Source: Psilocybe cubensis (taxonomy: Eukaryota). Taken from it: a stretch of DNA of 64,000 bases. Made by a program: the position numbers and the translations under genes. The notes below the pieces were generated by a model. That model did no database searches and was not told where the DNA came from. It saw nothing but the letters and a program-made list of their open reading frames with translations. Shown here piece by piece: positions 53,934 to 62,637 of this stretch. The stretch spans positions 1,488,001 through 1,552,000 of the forward strand of contig CM038998.1 of the NCBI GenBank assembly GCA_017499595.2, in the 5' to 3' direction. Numbering within the stretch: the stretch's first letter is position 1; every line of letters starts with the position of its first letter.

Positions 53934-55305
53934 ATGCCCGACATCTTTGTGCAGTCTTTCACCCACCTCAAGGACAAGCCAAATGCCGACAAGGCACTAC
54001 ATACACTCCAGAGGGTAGCATCCCTGGTCAAGCCCATTATGCGAAAGCATAATTGGGTTTTACCAGTTCTCGCCGAATTCTTTCCGGATAATCCCAATCT
54101 ACTAGGTGATGATGACTTGGCTACATTGCACAATTATGCCAACTTTGCTAATATATCCTGCTCTCTTAACTGGCAGGACTTAGTGCGTTCTTTGTGGACT
54201 GTGTTTCATCGAATATGATCCTGATAAGCGCTTAGATGTGAACATGGGACAGGAAATTCTTGTTCGACTTCGTCCAGCTCATTCTCCCAGCTCATTTCTC
54301 CCAGAAGCCGACGTAGTTGGGACCATGCTTCACGAGGTATGCCCAGTGAGAAACTGCTACACGAGCTGCAATGTAGTTATCGCCTGCACAGCTTACACAC
54401 AACGTCCATGGTCCTCACGATGAAAAGTTTTACAAATACCTCGACGGCCTGCAGGACGAATATGATGCATTGCAACGGTCAGGCTACGCTGGCGAAGGAT
54501 TCTTTTCTGAAGGAAAACGCCTGGGTACCAACATATCCCATAACCTTCCACCACACTTAGCCCGCTTGAAAGCTTTAGAGGCCGCAGAGAAGCGTGTTAA
54601 GGCATCGAAAGTCCTTGGGTCGGGTGGTCGACTGGGTGGGTCAACTAGAAATACTGGACTGAGTCCCAGAGAGCTAGCATCCAGGGTACGTATCATTCCT
54701 TATCAGAATTCGAATGCCTGGATTGACAAATTGTGACTAAGGCCGCTGAAAAAAGGCTCCGCGATGAAAAATCGTGTGGAACAGGAGCCGAAGCTCAACG
54801 AGAAGTAGCCAAAGCAGCCAAAGAGAGCGTCACAAACAAGGTCATCGATTTGACGCTAGATGATGATATGGACATTGAAAAGACAGAACCTGATTCTGAT
54901 TCTAATTCAGAGGTTATTCTCGTCAAAGACTTGTTTCCAAGGCCTACCACATCCGCTGCTATGACTCATGGTTTTTCAACCAAAAATTCATTCAAGAGTT
55001 CAAATATTACCATAGCCCCATCGTCAAAACCTACGACGAAGTCCCCGGTGACTGAAATAGGCCAGAATGTACCATTTGTTTCTGCGGAAAGGGTGAAGCT
55101 ACGCCCTTCGGGCGCTGCGACCAATTGGTCGTGTTCGTTTTGCACGTTGATAAATCCAACGAACGCTGTCCAGTGTGATGCTTGCGGAATGAAGAGGCCG
55201 TTCGAGGACAATGAGGGATGGTCCTGTCATATTTGCGGTGAAAGAGGTAACTTGCATGAACACTGGGCATGTAAGTTCTGCGGGGCAATCAAGTTACACA
55301 GTTGA
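53934..55305 (+). CDS. WSS1: Wss1-like DNA-protein crosslink protease (WLM + SHP + VIM + SIM + RanBP2-type zinc fingers)
   Basis: VKPIMRKHNWVLPVLAEFFP..NLLGLNVN, MLHELTHNVHGPHDEKFY, SHP-like FFSEGKRLG, VIM RELASRAAEKR, SIM VIDLT, WSCSFCTLIN..CDAC. Confidence 0.9.
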
Positions 55306-55405
55306 TATGGTCACTGTAGACTGGCGGGACGGTCTGAATTCGTGGAACCCTTCTTTTGGATAGTACTGTTTATTTATCAGATACCATCGACCATCACATG
55401 AAAAG

Positions 55406-56896
55406 TTAAGTAGCCTTCATAATGCGAAACATTTTGACACTCTCAAATGAGCTATGGGTTTCAAATGTCTCTGAAAAAGTTGTTTCATCAATGCCGGTAT
55501 TCATTTCCTCAATGACAAGATGTGACTCTGGTACGGCTGTCAGCTGATGATGACCAACAATCAGGGAAAAAAGCAAATTACCTCGTACATGAGCAATGAA
55601 AATATTGACAGTCGATTCGTTTCTAACTGTGAGCGCGATGATAGCGTATCTGGGACTCCGTGACTCCGTTTGAAAAAGAGCAATTTTGAGAGTCCCAACC
55701 AAAAACGGAATTAGAGATGGGTCGAAAACCTATAGTCGTGGATCAATCTATAGGATGTAAAAGAAGGGTAGTAGATCTTACGACGTCAGCACCCAGGATC
55801 ACATCAGGGTCTATCTTATGTTGTATTAAAGTTTTCAATGCGCTGCACTGGATGGAGTCGGTTGATTCGGACCAATCAAGATTTAAAAAGTGGATATTGT
55901 GGTGTCGGGAAGACAAGTCTACACCAAAAAAGTCAAGAATAATGGCTATATAAAAAATATGATAAGACGTACTACAAGATAAATTAATATTGTCGCGACA
56001 CCGAAGCAAAACTTCGTTGTTGACATCAGTGAGGAATAGAGATGACAAAGGAGATGACTGATCCTTGCTCTCCCAGAATTTCTGCAGGCTAGCAACGACG
56101 ATTCCGAGAAAACCTATCCCTGACCCAAGTTCAAGAACACGTCTAGAAGTGATTACTTCTAATTGTGGAAATGAATTATAAGGACCATCGAAAGGTTTGA
56201 GTGACACTACCTGGATGCTTAATCACATAATGAGACAACACGAAACTTGCCATCCAGGTTCTTAACCCTGTAGTCCCGTTTTCAATCGTAGTTCTCGATT
56301 CAAGAAGTGTAGTAGTTTGATACTGCGATAGATTTATAGAGAACTCCGAGGTTGAGCGGTTAGGATTTCTGGGATTCCAGTAATGTGTAATATATGAATG
56401 CTGTGGTGCTGCCCTCCCAGGAAGGCCTCGCCCGCATATTTGGGAACGTATACTTGGTTGCATTGACCCAGTTGCCCTAAGTATTAATGCGATTGGAATC
56501 GTGACCTCATGGCAGGCTTAGCTACTTACGGACCGGAGCCTGGCATGAGAGAGACATAATGGTTGTAGATTCGAGCATCGATTTCGAAGTCGGCATAAAA
56601 CTACTAAAGCATGTCGTTTGCTGCTCGAATTGAAAAATGGCACAGAAAAAACGTACCTCTTCTTCTATGCACTTGCGTGCTCTGTCTTCAAGATTTTCAA
56701 TAGCCCATTTCCAAAAGCGTTGTTGGTATTGATCAGAGGGTGGATAGGCCCTGAAATGGTCATTAAGCAAAATATTGTTAACAAGAAAATTATTTATTTG
56801 AGTCAGAGAGCAATTATCGGGAAATTGAAGTTCACTGGGTGAAGTCAGAGAAAAGAAACATCGCAGGAGAGCAAAGAGTTGGGCGTCCATGATCAT
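55406..56896 (-). CDS. eEF2 lysine methyltransferase (EEF2KMT/FAM86/Efm3-like)
   Basis: FAM86-type N-terminus YPPSDQYQQRFWKW, ESRTTIENGTTGLRTWMAS, motif I VLELGSGIGFLG, LTDVN, LDW, ILGADV, ALTVRNEST. Confidence 0.85.
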
Positions 56897-57016
56897 AAGT
56901 TAAACGTTAAAACCCCATCGCGTTTGATTGCAATTATTTGGACTCAGATATTTCAAAGTCCGAAATTCACGTGACTGTTCCCAGAAATCCTTCAAATTTT
57001 TTGCTGGCGCTCCTCA

Positions 57017-58586
57017 ATGTTTTGCCACCACCTCTCTTCTTTCAGACCATGTCTGCGCTCGGTATCACGTCCTGTAGCCAGCACATCTCGTCTGTCCCAA
57101 TATAGGAGTAACTCAACTGTTGTCACATCGGAGAAGTTACATGATTCAGAGGATGGTGTCTCTGAGTTTGAGGAGGCAGATTCACAGGACGCTGACCAGG
57201 GCGACAAAGGACCCAGGAATTATAAGGAGTTCATGGCAACCATTGGCCCCAAGTTTCGCTATGCCTCACCACAGAATTGGTTAGCGCCAAAAACAGTTCA
57301 GTTAACTCCACTTCCTCTCCGTTCCGCCAGACTTACATGTACTCTTTCGCTTTAGCCATTTCCTATGAATCCTTCTTTCAAACCGCCTCCCCCAATATCT
57401 GATGTTCAAAAGGATATAATATTTCAACAATTTCTTGCGGACCCTCTATTACATTCTCCTCGGCGACTTGCTCAGCGCTATCACCTGAGTTTGAAACGTG
57501 TTGATGCAATCCTTCGCCTCAAGGGACTGGAAAGGCACTTCACTAAGGTTTGTCTCATCTTTCTATTCAACCATCTTCCCCCAATATCATTGGCGGATCG
57601 ATGAATGATGCCTTCTTCGATTAGTCTTATAGACAACCCCATGGTTACAACTCGTATTTAAACCCTGACATCTCACTCTTCTAAGAACTATGTTTGTGAA
57701 GAGCTGCGCTGACCTTTCTCTTCTTTCCAGGTACATATCTAAATGATCACTTTCACTCATTGCTAACTCGTGCTACCTTTTCGTCATTGTTCTAGACTGT
57801 GAGTACTCTTTACTGCAACCATTCCAGCTCTTGAGATGAGACATAACTTCATTCGCGAAATGGAAGATAATTCTGTGGTGCCTTACATCGCCCGGGATAT
57901 GGTTATAACCTGTTTCAACCCCATCTGAACTTTTTTTCCCCTGAATTGTGTACATGTTTTGCAAAGTGATGCTGACTAGCTTATTTACAGGGAATTCCTC
58001 TACAAACCGGGTTTCAGATTGGCATGGATAGGTTACTCAACGCTTGGACTCATCCGAAAACACCTTTTTATAAGGCAGGTGTTAAGAGCAAAAGCAAAAT
58101 CGAGGAACGTGAAGATGTTTCCCAAGCCGATGCCCTGGAACAAGCGGAGAAACGTGATGCTGCGCGTTATCGCTATGAACGTTTATATTGGGAATCTACT
58201 CCCGAAGATGGACGGGTAAGGTGTCCCGTATTTTATTTAGTACTAAACTGCTTACCATATCAATGACCTCGCAGGAACCTATCGTACCTGGAGTGTTGGA
58301 GGCTGTGAAGACGAGAGCGCTGCTGAGGGAGCAACGCAGGAAGAAGGCTGCTGCAAGACTTCTGCAAGGCCGACTGCCGAAGAGTCCTTGGATACGTCGA
58401 CCCTCGCGTCCATCCTTCGTTTCCTGGAGGCAGGGCCGTGTCGCTACCAGATTCGTCGACGTCGGGGCTGAGTTCTTGAGCGTGGAGGAATTAAACAAGA
58501 ACACCGCGCCTCGCAGGCACAGGCAAGAGCAACGGCAAAAGAAAGCTGCTGAAAAGATGCAGAAAATTTTGAACTCGAAGCAGTAG
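57017..58586 (+). CDS. Mitochondrial small-subunit ribosomal protein mS45 (Bot1/Mrps35-like)
   Basis: Mitochondrial presequence; PFPMNPSFKPPPPISD..I...SPRRLAQRYHLSLKRVDAILRLKGLE, which is the Bot1p-family signature. Long composite intron 57548-57990. Confidence 0.82.
57595..57673 (+). ncRNA. Candidate intronic box C/D snoRNA guiding 25S rRNA 2'-O-methylation
   Basis: Box C-like (C)GATGAATGATG 57599-57610; 13-nt element TTCGATTAGTCTT (57616-57628), the exact reverse complement of conserved LSU rRNA AAGACUAAUCGAA; D'-like TAGA 57630-57633; box D CTGA 57665-57668; lies inside an intron. Confidence 0.55.
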
Positions 58587-58674
58587 ATATTCCTTGTGCC
58601 TTTGTTTATCCATGAATACAGTCGATTTGTGTATATCTCTCTTATAGTGAATAATAAACTAGATGGTGTCGAGA

Positions 58675-59235
58675 TTATATTATAAGTCCTTCGATCTTCA
58701 AGTCATACACAGTTATTCTTCCGAAGAAGTCTGAACTGGTTTCGAAGACTAGTTTTAATGCCACTATTCCTTCTTTGAATCCATCGTATTGTTCAGGCAT
58801 CAGGTTAAACGCCTGCCTGCGATTAACATCTTCCGGGTAGACAGTGGCAAATATCTGCCAATCCTTTTTATTTTTGCCATCCGTGACGAACAATGCACAG
58901 CGTGTCCCAACGAATCCTCCTTGAAAAGTGATCGAGAGGCGCTTGGGTAATACTCTATCCTCGAACCCTAACTGTATGAATTGAGGAAGACCCTTCAAGA
59001 TTACACTGAATAAATGTACGAGAACACGAAATTAAGATTGAGCAACTACAAACCTGTTGTGATGTCCAACATGTTTCTGGGTTGTTGTCGATTAAATTTT
59101 TCTTTCCTGTGGCTTTTTCGAGGGTTGAACTAACTCTATATTCGATCAGCAATGTGATTAAACTGATTTAAACAAAAAAACAGACTTTAAGGATGTATTA
59201 CTGTCAATGAGGGACACCCACTCGTGGCTTGCCAT
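58675..59235 (-). CDS. Galactose-binding-domain-like protein, NR2C2AP/TRA16-like
   Basis: VSSTL...NLIDNNPETCWTSQQGLPQFIQL...ITFQGGFVG...YPEDVN..Q.F...LVFETSSDFFGRITVYDL. Confidence 0.8.
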
Positions 59236-59335
59236 CGCTGTATAGACAAGAGAACATTATCTTTTAGAAATTTAAAATTAACTTCACCTGTAACGTGACG
59301 TTTTGCGACTATTCCACCTTCATTCCTCTATCCAT

Positions 59336-60664
59336 ATGCCGTCGTTTCTAAAATCTAAACAAACAACAGCCAAGACGACGACGATACCACCCTGGCTTAT
59401 TCTTGCTAACACCGACAAGCATATCTACAAGGTTGAGCGTTTGCTTTCTTCGAGAGAAGCAACGCGGTATGCCGCTCGGGATGCATCACACCAGATTGCA
59501 TTGAAAGCTTCTGAATCTACACAACACGATAAATCTCCAGTTTTCAAAAGATCGTCTCAGAGGAAAGAGGGGAGCGCAGTGGATTTCGTTGAATATTACG
59601 GAATCACAGCTGGTCTGCATGAAGACAACCGCGATCTCAACCGGTATACTGACATTATACCTTACGATCGCACCCGCATTATTGTTCACGATGGAAGCCC
59701 ACCAGCTGTTGGGGATGAGAGCGAAGGGAAACGGCACGAACGATACTTGAACGCCAATTGGGTGTTGGAAAAGTTTGGGCATAAATGGTGGATCGCGACG
59801 CAGGCACCCCTACGACACACTGCACACGCATTTTTGAGTGTCATGCTCCAACCATCTGTACGCCCACCTCATGTTGATTTGCCTCTAAAAGATTCGAAAA
59901 CTAGGCGCGTACGGACCGTCGTACAGTTGGCGCGAAATGTCGAAAACGGTCGCAAGAAAGCAGATGCTTATTTCCCGAGTGAAGTGGGGAGATCCGTTGT
60001 GGTGCTCGCCGAACATGGATGGCGTGCGCCTCCATTAAAGGTTACTCTTTTGGCCAAGAAAGCCATCGACGAAGCCCACTGCATCCAAAGTACTGTGTCG
60101 GTTGCACCAATCAAAAACGCAACCTCGCACCTCGCAGAAGGACGTCACGGAACGGGTGTACAAGACGAAGACAATCATGGCCAAGCAATAGTATTCAACC
60201 ATCTGTTATATCTTTCGTGGCCTGATCACGGTGTTCCAAGTCCAGAAGATCGCCTCAGTTTAGTCCACTTCATACAACTTGTAGACCGAATCAATCGTGA
60301 CACCTCTCAGTGTCCTATTCATTCAGCAGCGACTACAAATCATATCTGTGAAGAGCTTGATCCCGACCCACCAATCATTGTTGGATGCTCTGCTGGAATT
60401 GGCCGTACTGGAGCATTTGTGGCGCTTTCTTCACTTCTGCGTAAATATGGCTTCCTCTTGCCAGCAGCACATCCGACTATTGCACCTCATGTGTACACCT
60501 CACCTCTTGGTCCAATACCATCTGATCCTGATCTCCAGGATGACCTGGTGCTACAAGAAGTTGATTCCCTGAGAGAACAAAGACCAGGGATGGTTGAGCG
60601 AAAGGTACAGATGTCACTCATTTACGAAGTTTTGGCATCCGTGCTTGCCAGTGAGAGTAATTAG
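59336..60664 (+). CDS. Classical-type protein tyrosine phosphatase, intronless
   Basis: NRYTDIIPYD, YLNANWV, WIATQAPL, WPDHGVP, P-loop GCSAGIGRTG, LREQRPGMV. Confidence 0.9.
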   Translation: MPSFLKSKQTTAKTTTIPPWLILANTDKHIYKVERLLSSREATRYAARDASHQIALKASESTQHDKSPVFKRSSQRKEGSAVDFVEYYGITAGLHEDNRDLNRYTDIIPYDRTRIIVHDGSPPAVGDESEGKRHERYLNANWVLEKFGHKWWIATQAPLRHTAHAFLSVMLQPSVRPPHVDLPLKDSKTRRVRTVVQLARNVENGRKKADAYFPSEVGRSVVVLAEHGWRAPPLKVTLLAKKAIDEAHCIQSTVSVAPIKNATSHLAEGRHGTGVQDEDNHGQAIVFNHLLYLSWPDHGVPSPEDRLSLVHFIQLVDRINRDTSQCPIHSAATTNHICEELDPDPPIIVGCSAGIGRTGAFVALSSLLRKYGFLLPAAHPTIAPHVYTSPLGPIPSDPDLQDDLVLQEVDSLREQRPGMVERKVQMSLIYEVLASVLASESN

Positions 60665-61186
60665 GCGCTCGTCATTGCCTCATATGTTTAATGTAAGTTT
60701 CTCGAATGACATTATAACTTTCTGAATGTTGCATGGAATGCAATGTCCTTGTGTGATGTTTTCTATTTCTCCCTCAGGCCCTTTTCTTTTCACTGCTCGT
60801 CGAATGTGTAGAATTTGAAGGAAAAAACTGAAATTACTAAGTTTCTGTAGCCAGCGCCTAACGACCTAGACTCACTTTATTCCATACTCGGCTTGATTTT
60901 GACAAGACTACTGTACTTGCGAGATGCGCATTCTCGAAGCAGCGTTCTATCTATATAAGAAACGGTTATGAAGGACAAGTAGACGTGAGAGCTAACATTT
61001 ACGGCTCCCTACGGACATGCCATGCCGCCGTTCACGAGGCCTGTGTGCTTGATTTCAGAATGTGCGAATGATGGTGAAATTCCTGAAAAGGCGTCATAGA
61101 CGACCGATTAATCAGCCTTTATCTCATGTAGCGTACGGATTATTTATATGGTCAGTATATGTCCGCTCTGTTTGCCCCCAAGATTT

Positions 61187-62637
61187 ATGTTCCCATACCG
61201 AGCGGTGCAATTTCGTCTTTCCCAATACCTTCGCCACCTTTCTCACATTGCACAGAATACTCGATCAATGTCCCTTCCTTCCACAGTTGAGGCCATCACT
61301 ATTCCCCATGTAAGTGAAAGTGTCCAGTCTTTGTGTGAGGGTAATCTCAATCCTTGCAAAGACAGGGGGCGTGGAAGTGCTTGAGAAAACCACAATCCCA
61401 TTCCCTAAAGTTAACCCTGGTGATGTTGTTATCAAGGTAATCAATCCGATAATCTACTTTGAGATTCAGTTGAACTCCATTCACCAGGTTGAATACTTCG
61501 GTGTTAACTTCATAGATACATACTATAGGTGATGTCACTTGTAACTTGGATTCCGCGAAACTGACCATATATTTTATTTGAAGGTCTGGGTTGTATAAGT
61601 ACACAGAATTCCCGGCCATTATAGGAAAGGAGACCTCTGGTACAATTGTCGCACTGCCAACAGACGATGCCGTTTTGTCCAACGAGACATACAAGAAGCG
61701 AGGATATAAGATTGGCGGCAAAGTCGCTGCCGTAAGTCGATCCCTAACAGCTATTTCAATAAACTTCGATTTACATGCCTTCAAATAAACTAGGATTTCC
61801 TTGGATCCCATGCTACATACATCTCAGTACCTTGGAAATTCGTGTATCCCGTGCCCGACTCCCTGTCGACTAAGATAGCTGCTGCCGCAGCACTTCAGGG
61901 CTTGACAGCGGTCACATTTTTTGAAGAGGCGTACAAGGTTAAAAAGGGTGATACCATCCTCATACATACAATTGCAGGTGGTTTGGGATTACTTTTTGCA
62001 CAGCTTGGAAGACGCGTTGGAGCCACGGTGATTGGTACGACGTCCACTCCGGCAAAAGCAGAACTTGCGAAGCAGAATGGAGCCGATCACGTTATTTTAT
62101 ATCCTGTAGAAGACACTGTGGCAAGGGTTTTGGAAATCACTAATGGCGAGGGTGTAGATGCCGTTTTCGATGGTGTTGGAAAAGACACGTATGTAATGGA
62201 AAAAAATTCCCAGTTCCATTGTTTAGAAGGCTAATACATGTTTTCGTGTTCCAGGTTTGACAATAACTTTAAGTTGATCAAGCGCAAGGGTACCATAGTC
62301 TCAGTTGGGAACGCTTCTGGTGCCGTCCCGCCGTTTTCAATCCCTAGGCTTGTCGAAAAAAATGTCAAACTATTGCGCCCAACGTGAGTTGTCATATTTG
62401 CTCAGGATGGACAGGTACTGAAAACATGGCTAATGATTCAGAATGAGTAACTATGTTTACACCCCAGAAGAAGCCGAGCACTATGGCAAGATTCTTTTTG
62501 ACTTGGTGGTGAAAGGGGACCTCAAGATCCAGATTTATAAAGAGTACCCCTTCACTGTAGAGGGAGTGAGGCAGGCACAAAGCGATCTCACCGCCGCTGG
62601 AGGGAAGACCACCGGGAAGTTGCTGATCAAGGTGTAA
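61187..62637 (+). CDS. NADPH:quinone oxidoreductase (zeta-crystallin/Zta1-like, MDR family)
   Basis: TGGVEVLE, GVNFIDTYYRSGLY, GKETSG, LQGLTA, HTIAGGLG, GVDAVFDGVGKDTF, SVGNASG, KTTGKLL. Second in-frame ATG at 61268. Confidence 0.93.

What the first reader, a model, noticed from the sequence alone, without database searches (positions are those of the whole stretch)
57548..57990. Composite intron in mS45: three back-to-back introns joined by a zero-length AG|GT junction and a 3-nt microexon (candidate recursive splicing)
Seen: most introns in this window are about 50-60 nt, but this one is 443 nt and parses into three units, each with its own donor, branch point and acceptor. Unit 1 (57548-57730) runs GTTTGT...GCTGAC(57708)...CTTTCTCTTCTTTCCAG. 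Unit 2 (57731-57795) begins on the very next base, GTACAT...TGCTAAC(57761)...TTCTAG; GTACAT is also the donor of the first RasGEF intron at 518. Only ACT (57796-57798) separates it from unit 3 (57799-57990), GTGAGT...GCTGAC...TTACAG. Three outcomes follow. Full removal gives FTK|GIPLQ. Recursive removal keeping ACT gives FTK-T-GIPLQ, in frame. Keeping 57731-57798 as an exon gives V-H-I-stop, a poison exon. Known: zero-length-exon recursive splicing is described mainly in animals, and fungi have stwintrons. Inference: the intron is subdivided so that an embedded snoRNA is released in its own short lariat, possibly coupling snoRNA output to NMD control of a mitoribosomal protein.
Basis: partly seen in the sequence, partly recalled or inferred. 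Interest (0 to 1): 0.78.

Follow-up and report, generated by a model that had tools for sequence, protein, structure and literature searches.

The report
Three abutting introns hosting two snoRNAs
What looked like one long intron in a mushroom mitochondrial-ribosome gene is really three back-to-back introns, two of which each carry a small RNA that guides ribosomal RNA modification, separated by a zero-length junction and a 3-base coding exon that public gene models miss.

Summary
Spliced RNA contigs from two runs join 57547 to 57991 with the letters ACT between them. The only AG|ACT|GT in the interval is at 57796-57798. The mRNA therefore reads FTK-T-GIPLQ, whereas the public Psilocybe cubensis model reads FTKGIPLQ.

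In 80 related metagenome loci, 46 share the same three-part layout and fall into 22 lineage clusters when the window is counted. The layout is a 150-190-nt unit 1 with its own branch point, an invariant AG|GT, a 61-80-nt unit 2, a 3-nt exon and a unit 3.

Units 1 and 3 each hold a conserved box C/D snoRNA that Rfam does not recognise. Their invariant blocks are complementary to one stretch of large-subunit rRNA. Seven of seven pairs in an internal hairpin covary.

Best reading: this is a protein-coding snoRNA host built on one snoRNA per intron. Each snoRNA sits about 38-42 nt upstream of its own branch point, and units 1 and 2 are removed sequentially. Sequential use is inferred from conservation, not seen in RNA. 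The proposed NMD coupling has no support.

Zero-length exons in fungal snoRNA hosts and 3-nt exons in Coprinopsis are already published, so this is a new variant of a known kind.

The parts
57356..57547 (+). Exon 2 of the mS45 (MRPS35/Bot1p) gene, ending in ...FTK (AAG)
   Evidence: Pfam PF12298 Bot1p, E 1.8e-17. It is 100% identical to the NCBI 'Psilocybe cubensis 37S ribosomal protein S35, mitochondrial', P0001. The exon limits come from the RNA contigs.
57548..57730 (+). Unit 1: a 183-nt intron with donor GTTTGT, branch motif CTGAC at 57709-57713 and acceptor CAG. It hosts snoRNA-A.
   Evidence: A branch motif CT[AG]A[CT] lies 7-45 nt before the terminal AG in 48 of 50 distinct unit-1 sequences. 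The terminal AG is invariant in 22 of 22 lineage representatives.
57600..57672 (+). snoRNA-A, a box C/D candidate of about 73 nt. Terminal stem GATG/CATC; C box ATGATGC at 57605-57611; LSU-complementary block (TT)CGATTAGTCTT at 57616-57628; C' ATGGTTA at 57641-57647; D box CTGA at 57665-57668.
   Evidence: The boxes and the block GATTAGTCTT are conserved across 50 distinct unit-1 sequences while the flanks are not. The block is the complement of Agaricomycete LSU rDNA ...AAAGACTAATCGAACC..., as printed in PMC12287172. The same motif is used in universal 28S primers. No Rfam match.
57730..57731 (+). Zero-length junction CAG|GT: the last base of unit 1 directly abuts the first base of unit 2.
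   Evidence: It is the only AGGT in the 443 nt. AG|GT is present in 22 of 22 lineage representatives; the neighbouring positions vary, apart from A at +3 in 21 of 22. The background rate of AGGT is 5 in 8551 nt.
57731..57795 (+). Unit 2: a 65-nt intron without a snoRNA. Weak donor GTACAT (no G at +5), branch motif CTAAC at 57763-57767, acceptor TAG.
   Evidence: Unit 2 is 61-80 nt long in relatives. G at +5 of its donor is present in only 2 of 22 representatives, against 22 of 22 for the donor after the microexon.
57796..57798 (+). A 3-nt coding microexon, ACT (Thr)
   Evidence: RNA contigs of X10 (depth 67.8) and X11 (50.3) hold ACT between 57547 and 57991 (table 5c). This is the only ACT flanked by AG and GT. 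An AG|NNN|GT at the same place occurs in 22 of 22 representatives. A Hebeloma-like cDNA-like contig, L001, reads K-E-GKELQ, matching the GAG microexon of the genomic loci L003, L008 and L009.
57799..57990 (+). Unit 3: a 192-nt intron with donor GTGAGT, branch motif CTGAC at 57972-57976 and acceptor CAG. It hosts snoRNA-B.
   Evidence: alignment of 34 distinct unit-3 sequences.
57833..57928 (+). snoRNA-B, a box C/D candidate with a core of about 96 nt. C box GAGATGA at 57833-57839 (one mismatch; relatives have ATGATGA); TCATTCGC at 57849-57856; hairpin 57873-57895 with loop CCTTACAT; C' ATGGTTA at 57899-57905; GTTTCAACCCCA at 57912-57923; D box CTGA at 57925-57928.
   Evidence: The blocks are conserved in 31 sequences. 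In the hairpin, 7 of 7 pairs show compensatory changes and 95.3% of cells are paired, against 35-46% when the partners are slid; 0 of 500 shuffles reach this. GTTTCAACCCCA (12 nt), TCATTCGC (8 nt) and CTTACAT (7 nt) all occur on the antisense strand of one roughly 90-nt stretch of Agaricomycete LSU rDNA. No Rfam match.
57991..58215 (+). Next exon, starting GIPLQTGF...
   Evidence: RNA contigs; homologue alignment.

Best explanation
The stretch 57548-57990 of the Psilocybe cubensis mS45 gene is a snoRNA-host module made of three consecutive spliceosomal introns.

**Layout.** Unit 1 (183 nt) and unit 3 (192 nt) each carry one box C/D snoRNA. The conserved antisense blocks of both snoRNAs pair with the same region of large-subunit rRNA. 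Unit 2 (65 nt) is a plain short intron with a weak donor. Units 1 and 2 abut at a zero-length exon (CAG|GT). Units 2 and 3 are separated by a 3-nt coding exon (ACT), which is kept in the mRNA and adds one residue, giving FTK-T-GIPLQ.

**Why unit 1 keeps its own splice signals (inferred).** Each snoRNA lies a fixed 31-48 nt upstream of its own branch point. The terminal stems are short. These snoRNAs therefore probably depend on splicing-coupled snoRNP assembly. That would explain why unit 1 keeps its own branch point and acceptor instead of merging with unit 2.

**Order of removal (inferred).** Because two splice sites share one phosphodiester bond, units 1 and 2 cannot be recognised at the same time. 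They must be removed one after the other, which is recursive splicing. The weak unit-2 donor plausibly lets the two strong snoRNA introns go first.

**Status of each step.**
- Shown: the microexon is in the mRNA, the architecture is conserved, and the snoRNA boxes, covariation and rRNA complementarity are present.
- Inferred: sequential use of AG|GT, the order of removal, the dependence of the snoRNAs on splicing, and the exact methylated nucleotides.
For: **Microexon in RNA.**: contigs of two RNA-like runs lack all three intervening stretches of the gene (60, 443 and 59 nt) and hold ACT at the 57547/57991 joint; there is a single AG|ACT|GT and a single AGGT in the interval.

**Conserved architecture.** sort the 80 related loci as follows:
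- 46 are tripartite (22 clusters at 90% exon-2 peptide identity, counting the window).
- 26 are Russulaceae-like and bipartite: unit 1, then GAG, then a roughly 50-nt intron.
- 2 are cDNA-like, 2 are too short to judge, and 4 are exceptions.

One search, on the 22 tripartite representatives:
- AG|GT is invariant in 22 of 22.
- G at +5 of the unit-2 donor occurs in 2 of 22, against 22 of 22 for the donor after the microexon.

a branch motif lies before the unit-1 AG in 48 of 50 sequences. One search, on 26 of 28 representatives: D box to branch A has median 38 nt (31-48, sd 4.1), against 5' splice site to C box with median 43 nt (27-59, sd 9.0).

**snoRNAs.**: only the C, C' and D boxes and the guide blocks are conserved; the guide blocks are complementary to Agaricomycete LSU rDNA printed in PMC12287172; the hairpin covaries.

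**Other support.**
- the cDNA-like L001 reads K-E-GK, matching the GAG microexon of its genomic relatives.
- where the two snoRNAs are fused into one hybrid (L065, L066), the AG|GT, unit 2 and the microexon are all gone and one intron remains.
- (PMC5519232, passage): human box C/D snoRNAs sit preferentially about 50 nt upstream of the branch point, and assembly is coupled to splicing unless long external stems are present.
- zero-length exons are documented in fungal snoRNA hosts.
Against: - No splicing intermediate or lariat was seen. Only assembled contigs of fully spliced mRNA were available, and they come from one study.
- The mature mRNA would be identical if 57548-57795 were removed in one step.
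- The lineages are related by descent, so the chance calculation overstates independence.
- Neither snoRNA matches an Rfam family, and neither was seen as a stable RNA.
- Both window C boxes have one mismatch, and snoRNA-B has no clear terminal stem.
- The D' boxes are degenerate, so the methylated nucleotides for the D' guides cannot be named.
- Unit 2 has no function of its own that I can show.
- Russulaceae manage with snoRNA-A next to a 3-nt exon and no unit 2. Unit 2 is therefore not strictly required for snoRNA-A.
- Single-sequence folds are no better than shuffles, which is expected for C/D snoRNAs but adds nothing.
Confidence: 0.7

Rival explanations
1. There are two introns, not three. 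The stretch 57548-57795 is removed in one step as a 248-nt intron, using the unit-1 donor with the unit-2 branch point and acceptor. The internal CAG|GT is conserved for a reason other than splice-site use, for example as a processing or protein-binding signal downstream of snoRNA-A.
For: The mature mRNA is equally compatible with this. The unit-2 donor is weak: G at +5 occurs in 2 of 22 representatives. No intermediate was observed.
Against: What is conserved around the junction looks like splice signals and nothing else. There is a CT[AG]A[CT] branch motif 10-30 nt upstream (48 of 50 sequences), a T-rich tract, an invariant AG, an invariant GT and A at +3. All other positions vary. In the loci where the snoRNAs have fused or been lost, the AG|GT disappears together with unit 2.
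Confidence: 0.2
2. One reading: inclusion of 57731-57798 as a poison exon (V-H-I-stop) couples snoRNA output to NMD control of mS45.
For: A retained unit 2 gives an in-frame stop in the window and in 17 of 22 lineage representatives. The weak donor could allow regulated retention.
Against: No such isoform appears in the RNA contigs, although contigs drop rare variants. Seventeen of 22 is roughly what random 60-80-nt sequence would give (my estimate, not a computed control). Unit-2 length is not constrained modulo 3, and its sequence shows no deep conservation beyond splice signals.
Confidence: 0.07
3. The conserved intronic blocks are not snoRNAs but some other conserved element, such as splicing enhancers or a regulatory RNA structure for the host gene.
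For: There is no Rfam hit, no RNA cover of the introns, and the window C boxes are imperfect.
Against: The blocks sit in C ... D'-side guide ... C' ... guide-D order at snoRNA-like lengths of 59-76 and 91-97 nt. A 12-nt block that ends one base (U) upstream of a perfect CUGA is complementary to LSU rRNA, and three more blocks match the same rRNA neighbourhood.
Confidence: 0.05

Closest known systems
Fungal snoRNA host transcripts with zero- or one-nucleotide exons: the Candida/Lodderomyces snR57-55-61 cluster and the Debaryomyces hansenii snR41/snR70 cluster (PMC5033589, passages read)
   Same: There is one snoRNA per intron. Exons between snoRNA introns have shrunk to 0-1 nt, and nested or recursive splicing is needed. 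A hybrid snoRNA made by recombination (snR61/U45) is also reported there, paralleling the A/B hybrid in L065 and L066.
   Different: Those hosts are non-coding polycistrons in Saccharomycotina. Here the host is a protein-coding gene, so the residual exons must stay in frame (0 and 3 nt). One of the three introns also carries no snoRNA.
The zero-length exon in the 336-nt intron of S. pombe SPNCRNA.445, the snoRNA61 host (bioRxiv 10.1101/226894, passages read)
   Same: A short fungal intron that hosts a snoRNA is internally divided by a 3' splice site immediately adjacent to a 5' splice site. The arrangement is conserved among related species.
   Different: The S. pombe host is non-coding, and splicing there was shown directly by spliceosome profiling. 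Here the evidence for use of the junction is comparative only. No microexon is involved in the S. pombe case.
Recursive splicing at ratchet points and RS-exons in Drosophila and vertebrates (PMC5126111 and PMC6224609; listing and abstract starts only)
   Same: A 3' splice site is juxtaposed with a 5' splice site, so the upstream exon is re-spliced.
   Different: In animals this serves very long introns (tens of kb) and, as I recall rather than from any call, uses strong regenerated donors. Here the whole module is 443 nt and the donor at the junction is systematically weak.
Stwintrons, spliceosomal twin introns of Pezizomycotina (PMC8469720, abstract start)
   Same: A complex intervening sequence in a fungus that needs consecutive splicing reactions.
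   Different: A stwintron has an internal intron that interrupts the donor, branch point or acceptor of the external intron. Here each unit has complete, uninterrupted signals, so the defining feature is not met.
Microexons of 3 nt or less in Coprinopsis cinerea (PMC12230235, passages read: 27 exons of 3 nt in 26 genes; microexons 'barely studied in fungi')
   Same: A 3-nt internal coding exon in an Agaricomycete that short-read-based or ab initio gene models miss.
   Different: That paper gives counts. The passages I read make no link to snoRNA-host introns or to zero-length junctions. I did not check whether its annotation covers the C. cinerea mS45 gene.
Position-dependent, splicing-coupled assembly of intronic box C/D snoRNPs in mammals (review PMC5519232, passage, citing Hirose & Steitz 2001 and Hirose et al. 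2006)
   Same: The snoRNA lies at a preferred short distance upstream of the branch point, and the terminal stems are short.
   Different: The distance here is about 31-48 nt rather than about 50 nt. Dependence on splicing or on an Aquarius/IBP160 orthologue has not been tested in these fungi.

Membership tests
Box C/D snoRNA (intron-encoded) | C box (RUGAUGA) near the 5' end and D box (CUGA) near the 3' end, at snoRNA-like spacing | tested here: met
   In the window, snoRNA-A has ATGATGC (one mismatch) and CTGA 64 nt apart. snoRNA-B has GAGATGA (one mismatch) and CTGA 96 nt apart. Relatives carry ATGATGA or TGATGA and CTGA. Core lengths are 59-76 and 91-97 nt.
Box C/D snoRNA (intron-encoded) | An antisense element of 10 nt or more, complementary to rRNA and ending just upstream of a D or D' box | tested here: met
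   In snoRNA-B, GTTTCAACCCCA (12 nt) ends one base before CTGA. In snoRNA-A, (TT)CGATTAGTCTT gives 10-13 nt. Both are found on the antisense strand of Agaricomycete LSU rDNA printed in PMC12287172, with 6 and 7 occurrences. The comparison was made by motif look-up in the paper text, not by a scripted alignment.
Box C/D snoRNA (intron-encoded) | Terminal stem bringing the C and D boxes together | tested here: inconclusive
   snoRNA-A has a 4-bp stem, GATG/CATC. snoRNA-B has 1 bp or less by my scan.
Box C/D snoRNA (intron-encoded) | Accumulates as a stable small RNA and directs 2'-O-methylation | not testable with these tools
   RNA contigs do not cover the introns. No small-RNA or RiboMeth data were available.
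Any curated Rfam snoRNA family | A score at or near the family gathering threshold | tested here: not met
   There were no matches at E<=1 over 54000-62000 or at E<=10 over 57540-58000. In 20 related loci there were 4 weak matches, none inside the intron module.
Recursive splicing through a zero-length exon | A functional-looking 3' splice site (branch motif, pyrimidine tract, AG) directly abutting a GT donor | tested here: met
   In the window, CTGAC ... CTTTCTCTTCTTTCCAG|GTACAT. AG|GT is present in 22 of 22 representatives, and the branch motif in 48 of 50 unit-1 sequences.
Recursive splicing through a zero-length exon | Both internal sites are used, shown by intermediates or separate lariats | not testable with these tools
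   Only the one read-laying run returned assembled contigs of the mature mRNA.
Stwintron | A splice signal of an external intron is interrupted by an internal intron and becomes functional only after the first excision | tested here: not met
   Each of the three units has an intact GT donor, a branch motif and an AG acceptor in the genomic sequence.
Coding microexon (3 nt or less) | Flanked by AG and GT in the genome and present in the mature mRNA | tested here: met
   TAG|ACT|GTGAGT at 57793-57804. ACT is present between the flanking exons in the contigs of X10 and X11.
AS-NMD poison exon | An alternative isoform with a premature stop is produced, and the feature is conserved | tested here: inconclusive
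   No such isoform appears in the contigs, but contigs drop rare forms. An in-frame stop occurs in 17 of 22 lineages, which I estimate is no more than expected for random sequence.
mS45 / Bot1p (PF12298) | A Pfam match above the gathering score | tested here: met
   Exon 2 scores 64.5 bits against a cut-off of 23, E 1.8e-17. NCBI names the identical protein 37S ribosomal protein S35, mitochondrial.

The most novel reading that the evidence does not exclude
The module is an obligatorily ordered splicing device. The two snoRNA introns, which have strong sites, are excised first and independently. Unit 2 has no snoRNA, and its donor has been kept weak (no G at +5) across Agaricales- and Boletales-like lineages. 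It acts as an insulator. It keeps the branch-point and 3'-splice-site complex of snoRNA intron 1 sterically clear of the 5'-splice-site complex of snoRNA intron 3, and it is removed last by re-splicing at the regenerated AAG|GTA site. If this is right, a protein-coding fungal gene uses conserved recursive splicing plus a 3-nt exon to make two rRNA-modification guides from one pre-mRNA. It would also give a compact 443-nt natural substrate for studying how zero- and 3-nt exons are defined under intron definition.
Probability: 0.3. Interest if true: 0.75.

Novelty: new variant of a known kind. Interest (0 to 1): 0.6.

Why it matters
1. **Annotation.** The finding corrects a widespread annotation problem at this junction. 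Of 117 homologous protein records:
   - 51 have the short form without the microexon residue. These include P. cubensis, P. cyanescens, Hebeloma and Russula, where genomic or RNA data here point to a microexon.
   - 32 lose the downstream exon.
   - 13 keep pieces of intron.

2. **New snoRNAs.** It identifies two box C/D snoRNAs of mushroom-forming fungi that Rfam does not hold, together with their likely LSU rRNA target region.

3. **Extension of known biology.** Zero-length-exon splicing in fungi was so far described in non-coding snoRNA hosts of yeasts. This case extends it to a protein-coding gene, with conservation across many Agaricomycete lineages. It offers a small, tractable natural test case for three questions: recursive splicing, microexon recognition, and the 'one snoRNA per intron at a fixed distance from the branch point' rule.

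4. **Natural variants.** The variants found here amount to ready-made evolutionary experiments: the Russulaceae two-part form, the hybrid snoRNA with a single intron, and complete loss.

Tried and rejected
**Searches that found nothing**
- Rfam found nothing for the module. In 20 relatives there were only 4 weak, irrelevant hits: mir-4659 twice, mir-3015, and sR42 at 17.8 bits outside the intron.
- No whole genome is held for this window. The genome search could not reach the metagenome records or any eukaryotic rRNA.
- The look-up of sequencing runs listed no RNA holder on record. X10 and X11 are 'RNA?' guesses, which I treat as RNA-derived because their contigs lack all three intervening stretches. 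Their contigs give no cover inside the introns, which says nothing about snoRNA expression or intermediates.
- The search of earlier findings returned nothing.
- Motif searches of the paper library found no snoRNA paper among the rows listed: 15 of 109 rows for and 15 of 58. A search on microexon, snoRNA and basidiomycete terms (12 of 27 listed) showed no description of this locus. I saw listings only.

**Analyses that were not informative**
- Single-sequence folds of both snoRNAs and of unit 2 are no better than shuffles: z = -0.02, 0.49 and 0.03.
- A whole-length alignment of unit 1 with unit 3 is not convincing as homology. The two snoRNAs do share the AAGAC and ATGGTTA scaffold, and they recombined in L065 and L066.
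- The inverted repeat 57545-57560 / 57834-57849 was not seen by eye in L002 and is probably chance.
- The poison-exon test gave 17 of 22 with in-frame stops, which is not distinctive.
- My automatic parse put the Russula-type locus L010 among the tripartite loci. I removed it by hand, so n is 22 rather than 23.

- I did not feed the LSU rDNA printed in PMC12287172 into a script. The complementarity rests on motif look-ups in the paper text.
- I give no yeast or human rRNA position numbers or names of orthologous snoRNAs, because I could only recall them.
- Whether the Russulaceae two-part form or the three-part form is ancestral is unresolved. Taxon labels for the loci are only best BLAST hits to named proteins.
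Full report
**1. What is in the sequence**

- Exon 2 of the gene ends ...TTCACTAAG at 57547.
- Unit 1 runs 57548-57730: GTTTGT ... GCTGAC at 57708-57713 ... CTTTCTCTTCTTTCCAG.
- Unit 2 starts on the very next base and runs 57731-57795: GTACAT ... TGCTAAC at 57761-57767 ... TTCTAG.
- ACT occupies 57796-57798.
- Unit 3 runs 57799-57990: GTGAGT ... CTGAC at 57972-57976 ... TTACAG.

AGGT occurs once in the 443 nt. Of 12 ACT triplets, only the one at 57796 is flanked by AG and GT. GTACAT is also present at 518.

The gene is the mitochondrial ribosomal protein mS45/MRPS35. Exon 2 matches Pfam PF12298 (Bot1p) at E 1.8e-17. It is 100% identical to the NCBI protein '37S ribosomal protein S35, mitochondrial [Psilocybe cubensis]', P0001.

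**2. RNA evidence**

One run search and one read-laying run were allowed. Two runs of one study (X10 and X11, labelled 'RNA?' by guess) gave contigs that skip 57296-57355 (60 nt), 57548-57990 and a 59-nt intron near 58216-58274. They are therefore spliced transcripts.

At the 57547/57991 joint both contigs carry three extra letters, ACT (table 5c; depths 67.8 and 50.3). So the 3-nt exon is in the mature mRNA and the protein reads ...ERHFTK-T-GIPLQTGF.

The public model P0001 (335 aa) reads ...FTKGIPLQ without the Thr.

The RNA contigs do not cover the intronic parts. They say nothing about intermediates or snoRNA accumulation.

DNA contigs of other strains (X5, X6) differ at 57637, 57650, 57727, 57791 and 57938. 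None of these touches a box, a guide block, a branch motif, AG|GT or the microexon.

**3. Relatives**

An alignment of exon 2 with 35 homologues was used to scan JGI metagenome contigs. In that scan 169 stretches matched, 112 were confirmed and 80 loci were kept.

I located the next exon (G-K-x-LQTGF) and parsed the DNA in between. The 80 loci sort as follows.

| Class | Loci | Description |
|---|---|---|
| Tripartite | 46 | Same layout as the window |
| Bipartite | 26 | About 90% identical to Russula or Lactarius proteins: unit 1 (153-166 nt), AG\|GAG\|GT, then a 48-53-nt intron |
| cDNA-like | 2 | L001, L006: uninterrupted ORFs |
| Too short | 2 | L045, L057: contig ends too early |
| Exceptions | 4 | L017, L064, L065, L066 |

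My script first counted the Russula-type locus L010 as tripartite. I moved it by hand.

Counting the window, the tripartite set forms 22 clusters at 90% exon-2 peptide identity. By best hit to named proteins, these clusters resemble Hebeloma, Agrocybe, Candolleomyces, Lyophyllaceae, Tricholoma, Leucocoprinus, Amanita, Volvariella and Cyclocybe (all Agaricales) and Scleroderma and Hygrophoropsis (Boletales). Several groups have no close named relative (about 55-63% identity). These labels are guesses.

**4. The junctions are conserved as splice sites**

Across the 22 representatives (L010 removed):

| Feature | Zero-length junction | Microexon |
|---|---|---|
| Upstream AG | 22 of 22 | 22 of 22 |
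| Downstream GT | 22 of 22 | 22 of 22 |
| A at donor +3 | 21 of 22 | not tallied |
| G at donor +5 | 2 of 22 | 22 of 22 |
| Other flanking positions | vary freely | vary freely |

- The microexon is always 3 nt: GAG in 8 lineages, GAT 3, CAG 3, ACG 3, AAA 2, and GAA, AAT and ACT once each.
- Every unit-1 donor listed also has G at +5.
- A CT[AG]A[CT] branch motif lies 7-45 nt before the unit-1 AG in 48 of 50 distinct unit-1 sequences.
- Outside the two junctions, AGGT occurs 5 times in 8551 nt of the same introns. In contrast it lies 46-69 nt after the snoRNA-A D box in every lineage. The formal chance figure from that call overstates independence, because the lineages share ancestry.
- The cDNA-like contig L001 (91% identical to Hebeloma cylindrosporum) reads AAG|GAG GGT AAA = K-E-G-K. 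Its genomic relatives L003, L008 and L009 have GAG as the candidate microexon and CAG|GGA as the last acceptor. The microexon is therefore used there too, while the public Hebeloma model P0011 lacks the Glu.

**5. Two snoRNAs**

Alignments of unit 1 (50 distinct sequences) and unit 3 (34 distinct sequences) show that only a few blocks are conserved.

*Unit 1 (snoRNA-A).*
- A C box, (A)TGATG(A).
- The invariant block GATTAGTCTT followed by nAAGAC.
- A C'-like ATGGTTA.
- A CTGA D box.
- In the window these span 57600-57672, with a 4-bp terminal stem GATG/CATC.

*Unit 3 (snoRNA-B).*
- TGATGA. The window has GAGATGA, one mismatch.
- TCATTCGCGAA.
- A hairpin with an invariant loop, CCTTACAT.
- TGGTTA.
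- TTCAACCCCAT directly before CTGA.

The hairpin stem covaries. Seven of 7 pairs show changes on both sides. Overall 95.3% of cells are paired, against 35-46% when the partners are slid by 1-3 columns, and 0 of 500 shuffles reach the observed values.

Rfam has no family for either RNA.

*rRNA target.* I could not obtain a eukaryotic rRNA from the sequence tools. A full-text search for the guide block, however, led to PMC12287172. That paper prints LSU rDNA of several Agaricomycetes. On the antisense strand it reads ...TTCTTACATATTTAAAG...GGTTGTTTCAACCCCAAGGCCTCTAATCATTCGCTTTACC...GATGGTTCGATTAGTCTTTCGCCCC....
- The snoRNA-A block gives 10-13 nt of complementarity (CGATTAGTCTTT occurs 7 times in the paper).
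- The snoRNA-B D-side block gives 12 nt (GTTTCAACCCCA, 6 times).
- The snoRNA-B D'-side block gives 8 nt (TCATTCGC, 7 times).
- The snoRNA-B loop gives 7 nt (CTTACAT).

All four are complementary to one LSU neighbourhood. PMC13664300 uses the same motif in 'universal' 28S reverse primers, so the target is a conserved part of the LSU.

By the box D +5 rule (recalled, standard for C/D guides), snoRNA-B should direct methylation of the third G in UGGGGUUGAAAC. The D' boxes are too degenerate for me to name the other target nucleotides.

**6. Spacing**

In 26 of 28 lineage representatives that could be parsed:

| Interval in unit 1 | Median (nt) | Range | sd |
|---|---|---|---|
| D box to branch adenosine | 38 | 31-48 | 4.1 |
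| Branch adenosine to 3' splice site | 17 | 10-30 | 3.8 |
| 5' splice site to C box | 43 | 27-59 | 9.0 |

In unit 3 the median D-box-to-branch distance is 42 nt and the median D-box-to-3'-splice-site distance is 62 nt (a few motif mis-parses are included).

The review PMC5519232 (passage) states that human box C/D snoRNAs sit preferentially about 50 nt upstream of the branch point. It also says that IBP160/Aquarius couples snoRNP assembly to splicing, and that long external stems can make assembly independent of splicing. The short stems and tight 3' spacing here fit splicing-coupled assembly. This is an inference.

**7. Natural variants**

- L065 and L066 have one intron of about 200 nt with a hybrid snoRNA. 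It consists of the 5' half of A, including its LSU guide, fused to the 3' half of B. The AG|GT, unit 2 and the microexon are all absent.
- L064 has a 64-nt intron, then ACG, then a 128-nt intron holding only the 3' half of B.
- L017 has a plain 107-nt intron.
- L060 and L063 keep the three-part layout, but unit 3 is shortened and snoRNA-B is degraded.
- The Russulaceae-like loci have snoRNA-A only, followed by GAG and a short intron whose donor is also mostly non-consensus (GTATAG, GTACAG).

The AG|GT junction is thus found only together with snoRNA-A, unit 2 and the microexon. Unit 2 is not indispensable for snoRNA-A.

**8. How it most likely works**

*Shown.*
- There are three units with complete splice signals.
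- The microexon is in the mRNA.
- Two conserved C/D-type RNAs are complementary to LSU rRNA.

*Inferred.*
- Unit 1 and unit 2 are separate introns removed one after the other. Their acceptor and donor share one junction and cannot be occupied together. Selection on an unused AG|GT with its own branch motif would be hard to explain otherwise.
- The consistently weak unit-2 donor suggests that the strong snoRNA introns are excised first and unit 2 last. I have no direct evidence for this order.

I put about 0.7 on the overall reading. Of its parts, about 0.97 applies to the microexon, about 0.9 to the two snoRNAs and about 0.7 to sequential use of AG|GT.

**9. Comparison with what is known**

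- Zero-length and 1-nt exons with nested or recursive splicing are described in non-coding snoRNA polycistrons of Candida, Lodderomyces and Debaryomyces. A recombinant hybrid snoRNA is described there too (PMC5033589, passages).
- A zero-length exon is described in the S. pombe snoRNA61 host intron (bioRxiv 10.1101/226894, passages).
- Exons of 1-3 nt are reported in Coprinopsis cinerea: 27 exons of 3 nt in 26 genes (PMC12230235, passages).
- This is not a stwintron, because no splice signal is interrupted (definition from the abstract start of PMC8469720).

What differs here:
- The host is protein-coding, so the residual exons are 0 and 3 nt and remain in frame.
- The middle intron is snoRNA-free and has a conserved weak donor.
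- The layout is conserved across many Agaricomycete lineages.
- The two snoRNAs are not in Rfam.

My searches found no description of this locus. I saw only listings for most hits and opened no supplements.

**10. Annotation consequence**

Of 117 homologous protein records:
- 51 have three residues between the Lys and LQ (the short form). Fifty of these are named genome models.
- 21 have four residues. Seven of these are unnamed, mostly transcript-like contigs.
- 32 have no downstream exon within reach.
- 13 carry other lengths, several with translated intron.

Where I have genomic or RNA data, the short form looks like a missed microexon. This applies to P. cubensis, to the Hebeloma-like loci, and to Russula P0075, which is 100% identical to L041. 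For the other species this is a prediction.

**11. Verdict**

I class the finding as a new variant of a known kind and of moderate-to-good interest.

Noticed in passing
L065:1733-1933 and L066:1482-1685 (the intron after the exon-2 match): A single intron of about 200 nt carries a hybrid box C/D snoRNA. It has the C box and LSU guide of snoRNA-A joined to the loop, C' and D box of snoRNA-B. Unit 2, the microexon and the AG|GT are gone. This looks like recombination between the two related snoRNAs.
   Followed up: partly
P0001-P0117 (homologues of window 57356-57547): This junction breaks gene prediction. There are 51 short-form models lacking the microexon residue, 32 models without the downstream exon and 13 with odd lengths, several containing translated intron. 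Only 21 have the long form.
   Followed up: partly
window 57545-57560 and 57834-57849: A 16-nt inverted repeat (14 of 16 complementary) pairs the unit-1 5' splice site with the C-box region of snoRNA-B. I did not see it by eye in L002, so it is probably chance.
   Followed up: partly
window 57637, 57650, 57727, 57791, 57938, 58610: The strain differences seen in DNA contigs X5 and X6 fall only in the introns and the 3' UTR. All of them miss the boxes, guide blocks, branch motifs, AG|GT and the microexon.
   Followed up: no
L005, L013, L015 and other Russulaceae-like loci (the short intron after GAG): The 48-53-nt intron after the GAG microexon has non-consensus donors (GTATAG, GTACAG). In some loci it contains ...CATGTCTGAAT..., which is faintly reminiscent of the D-box end of snoRNA-B. 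It might be a remnant of unit 3, but the evidence is too weak to call.
   Followed up: no
L017:1650-1756 versus L012:2328-2749: Two loci with closely similar mS45 exons differ radically. L012 has the full three-part module of 422 nt. L017 has a plain 107-nt intron with no snoRNA and no microexon.
   Followed up: no
window 57377-57399 versus 57566-57588, and 57365-57377 versus 57605-57617: Short direct repeats link exon 2 and unit 1 (83-85% identity over 13-23 nt, not colinear). This is probably chance.
   Followed up: no
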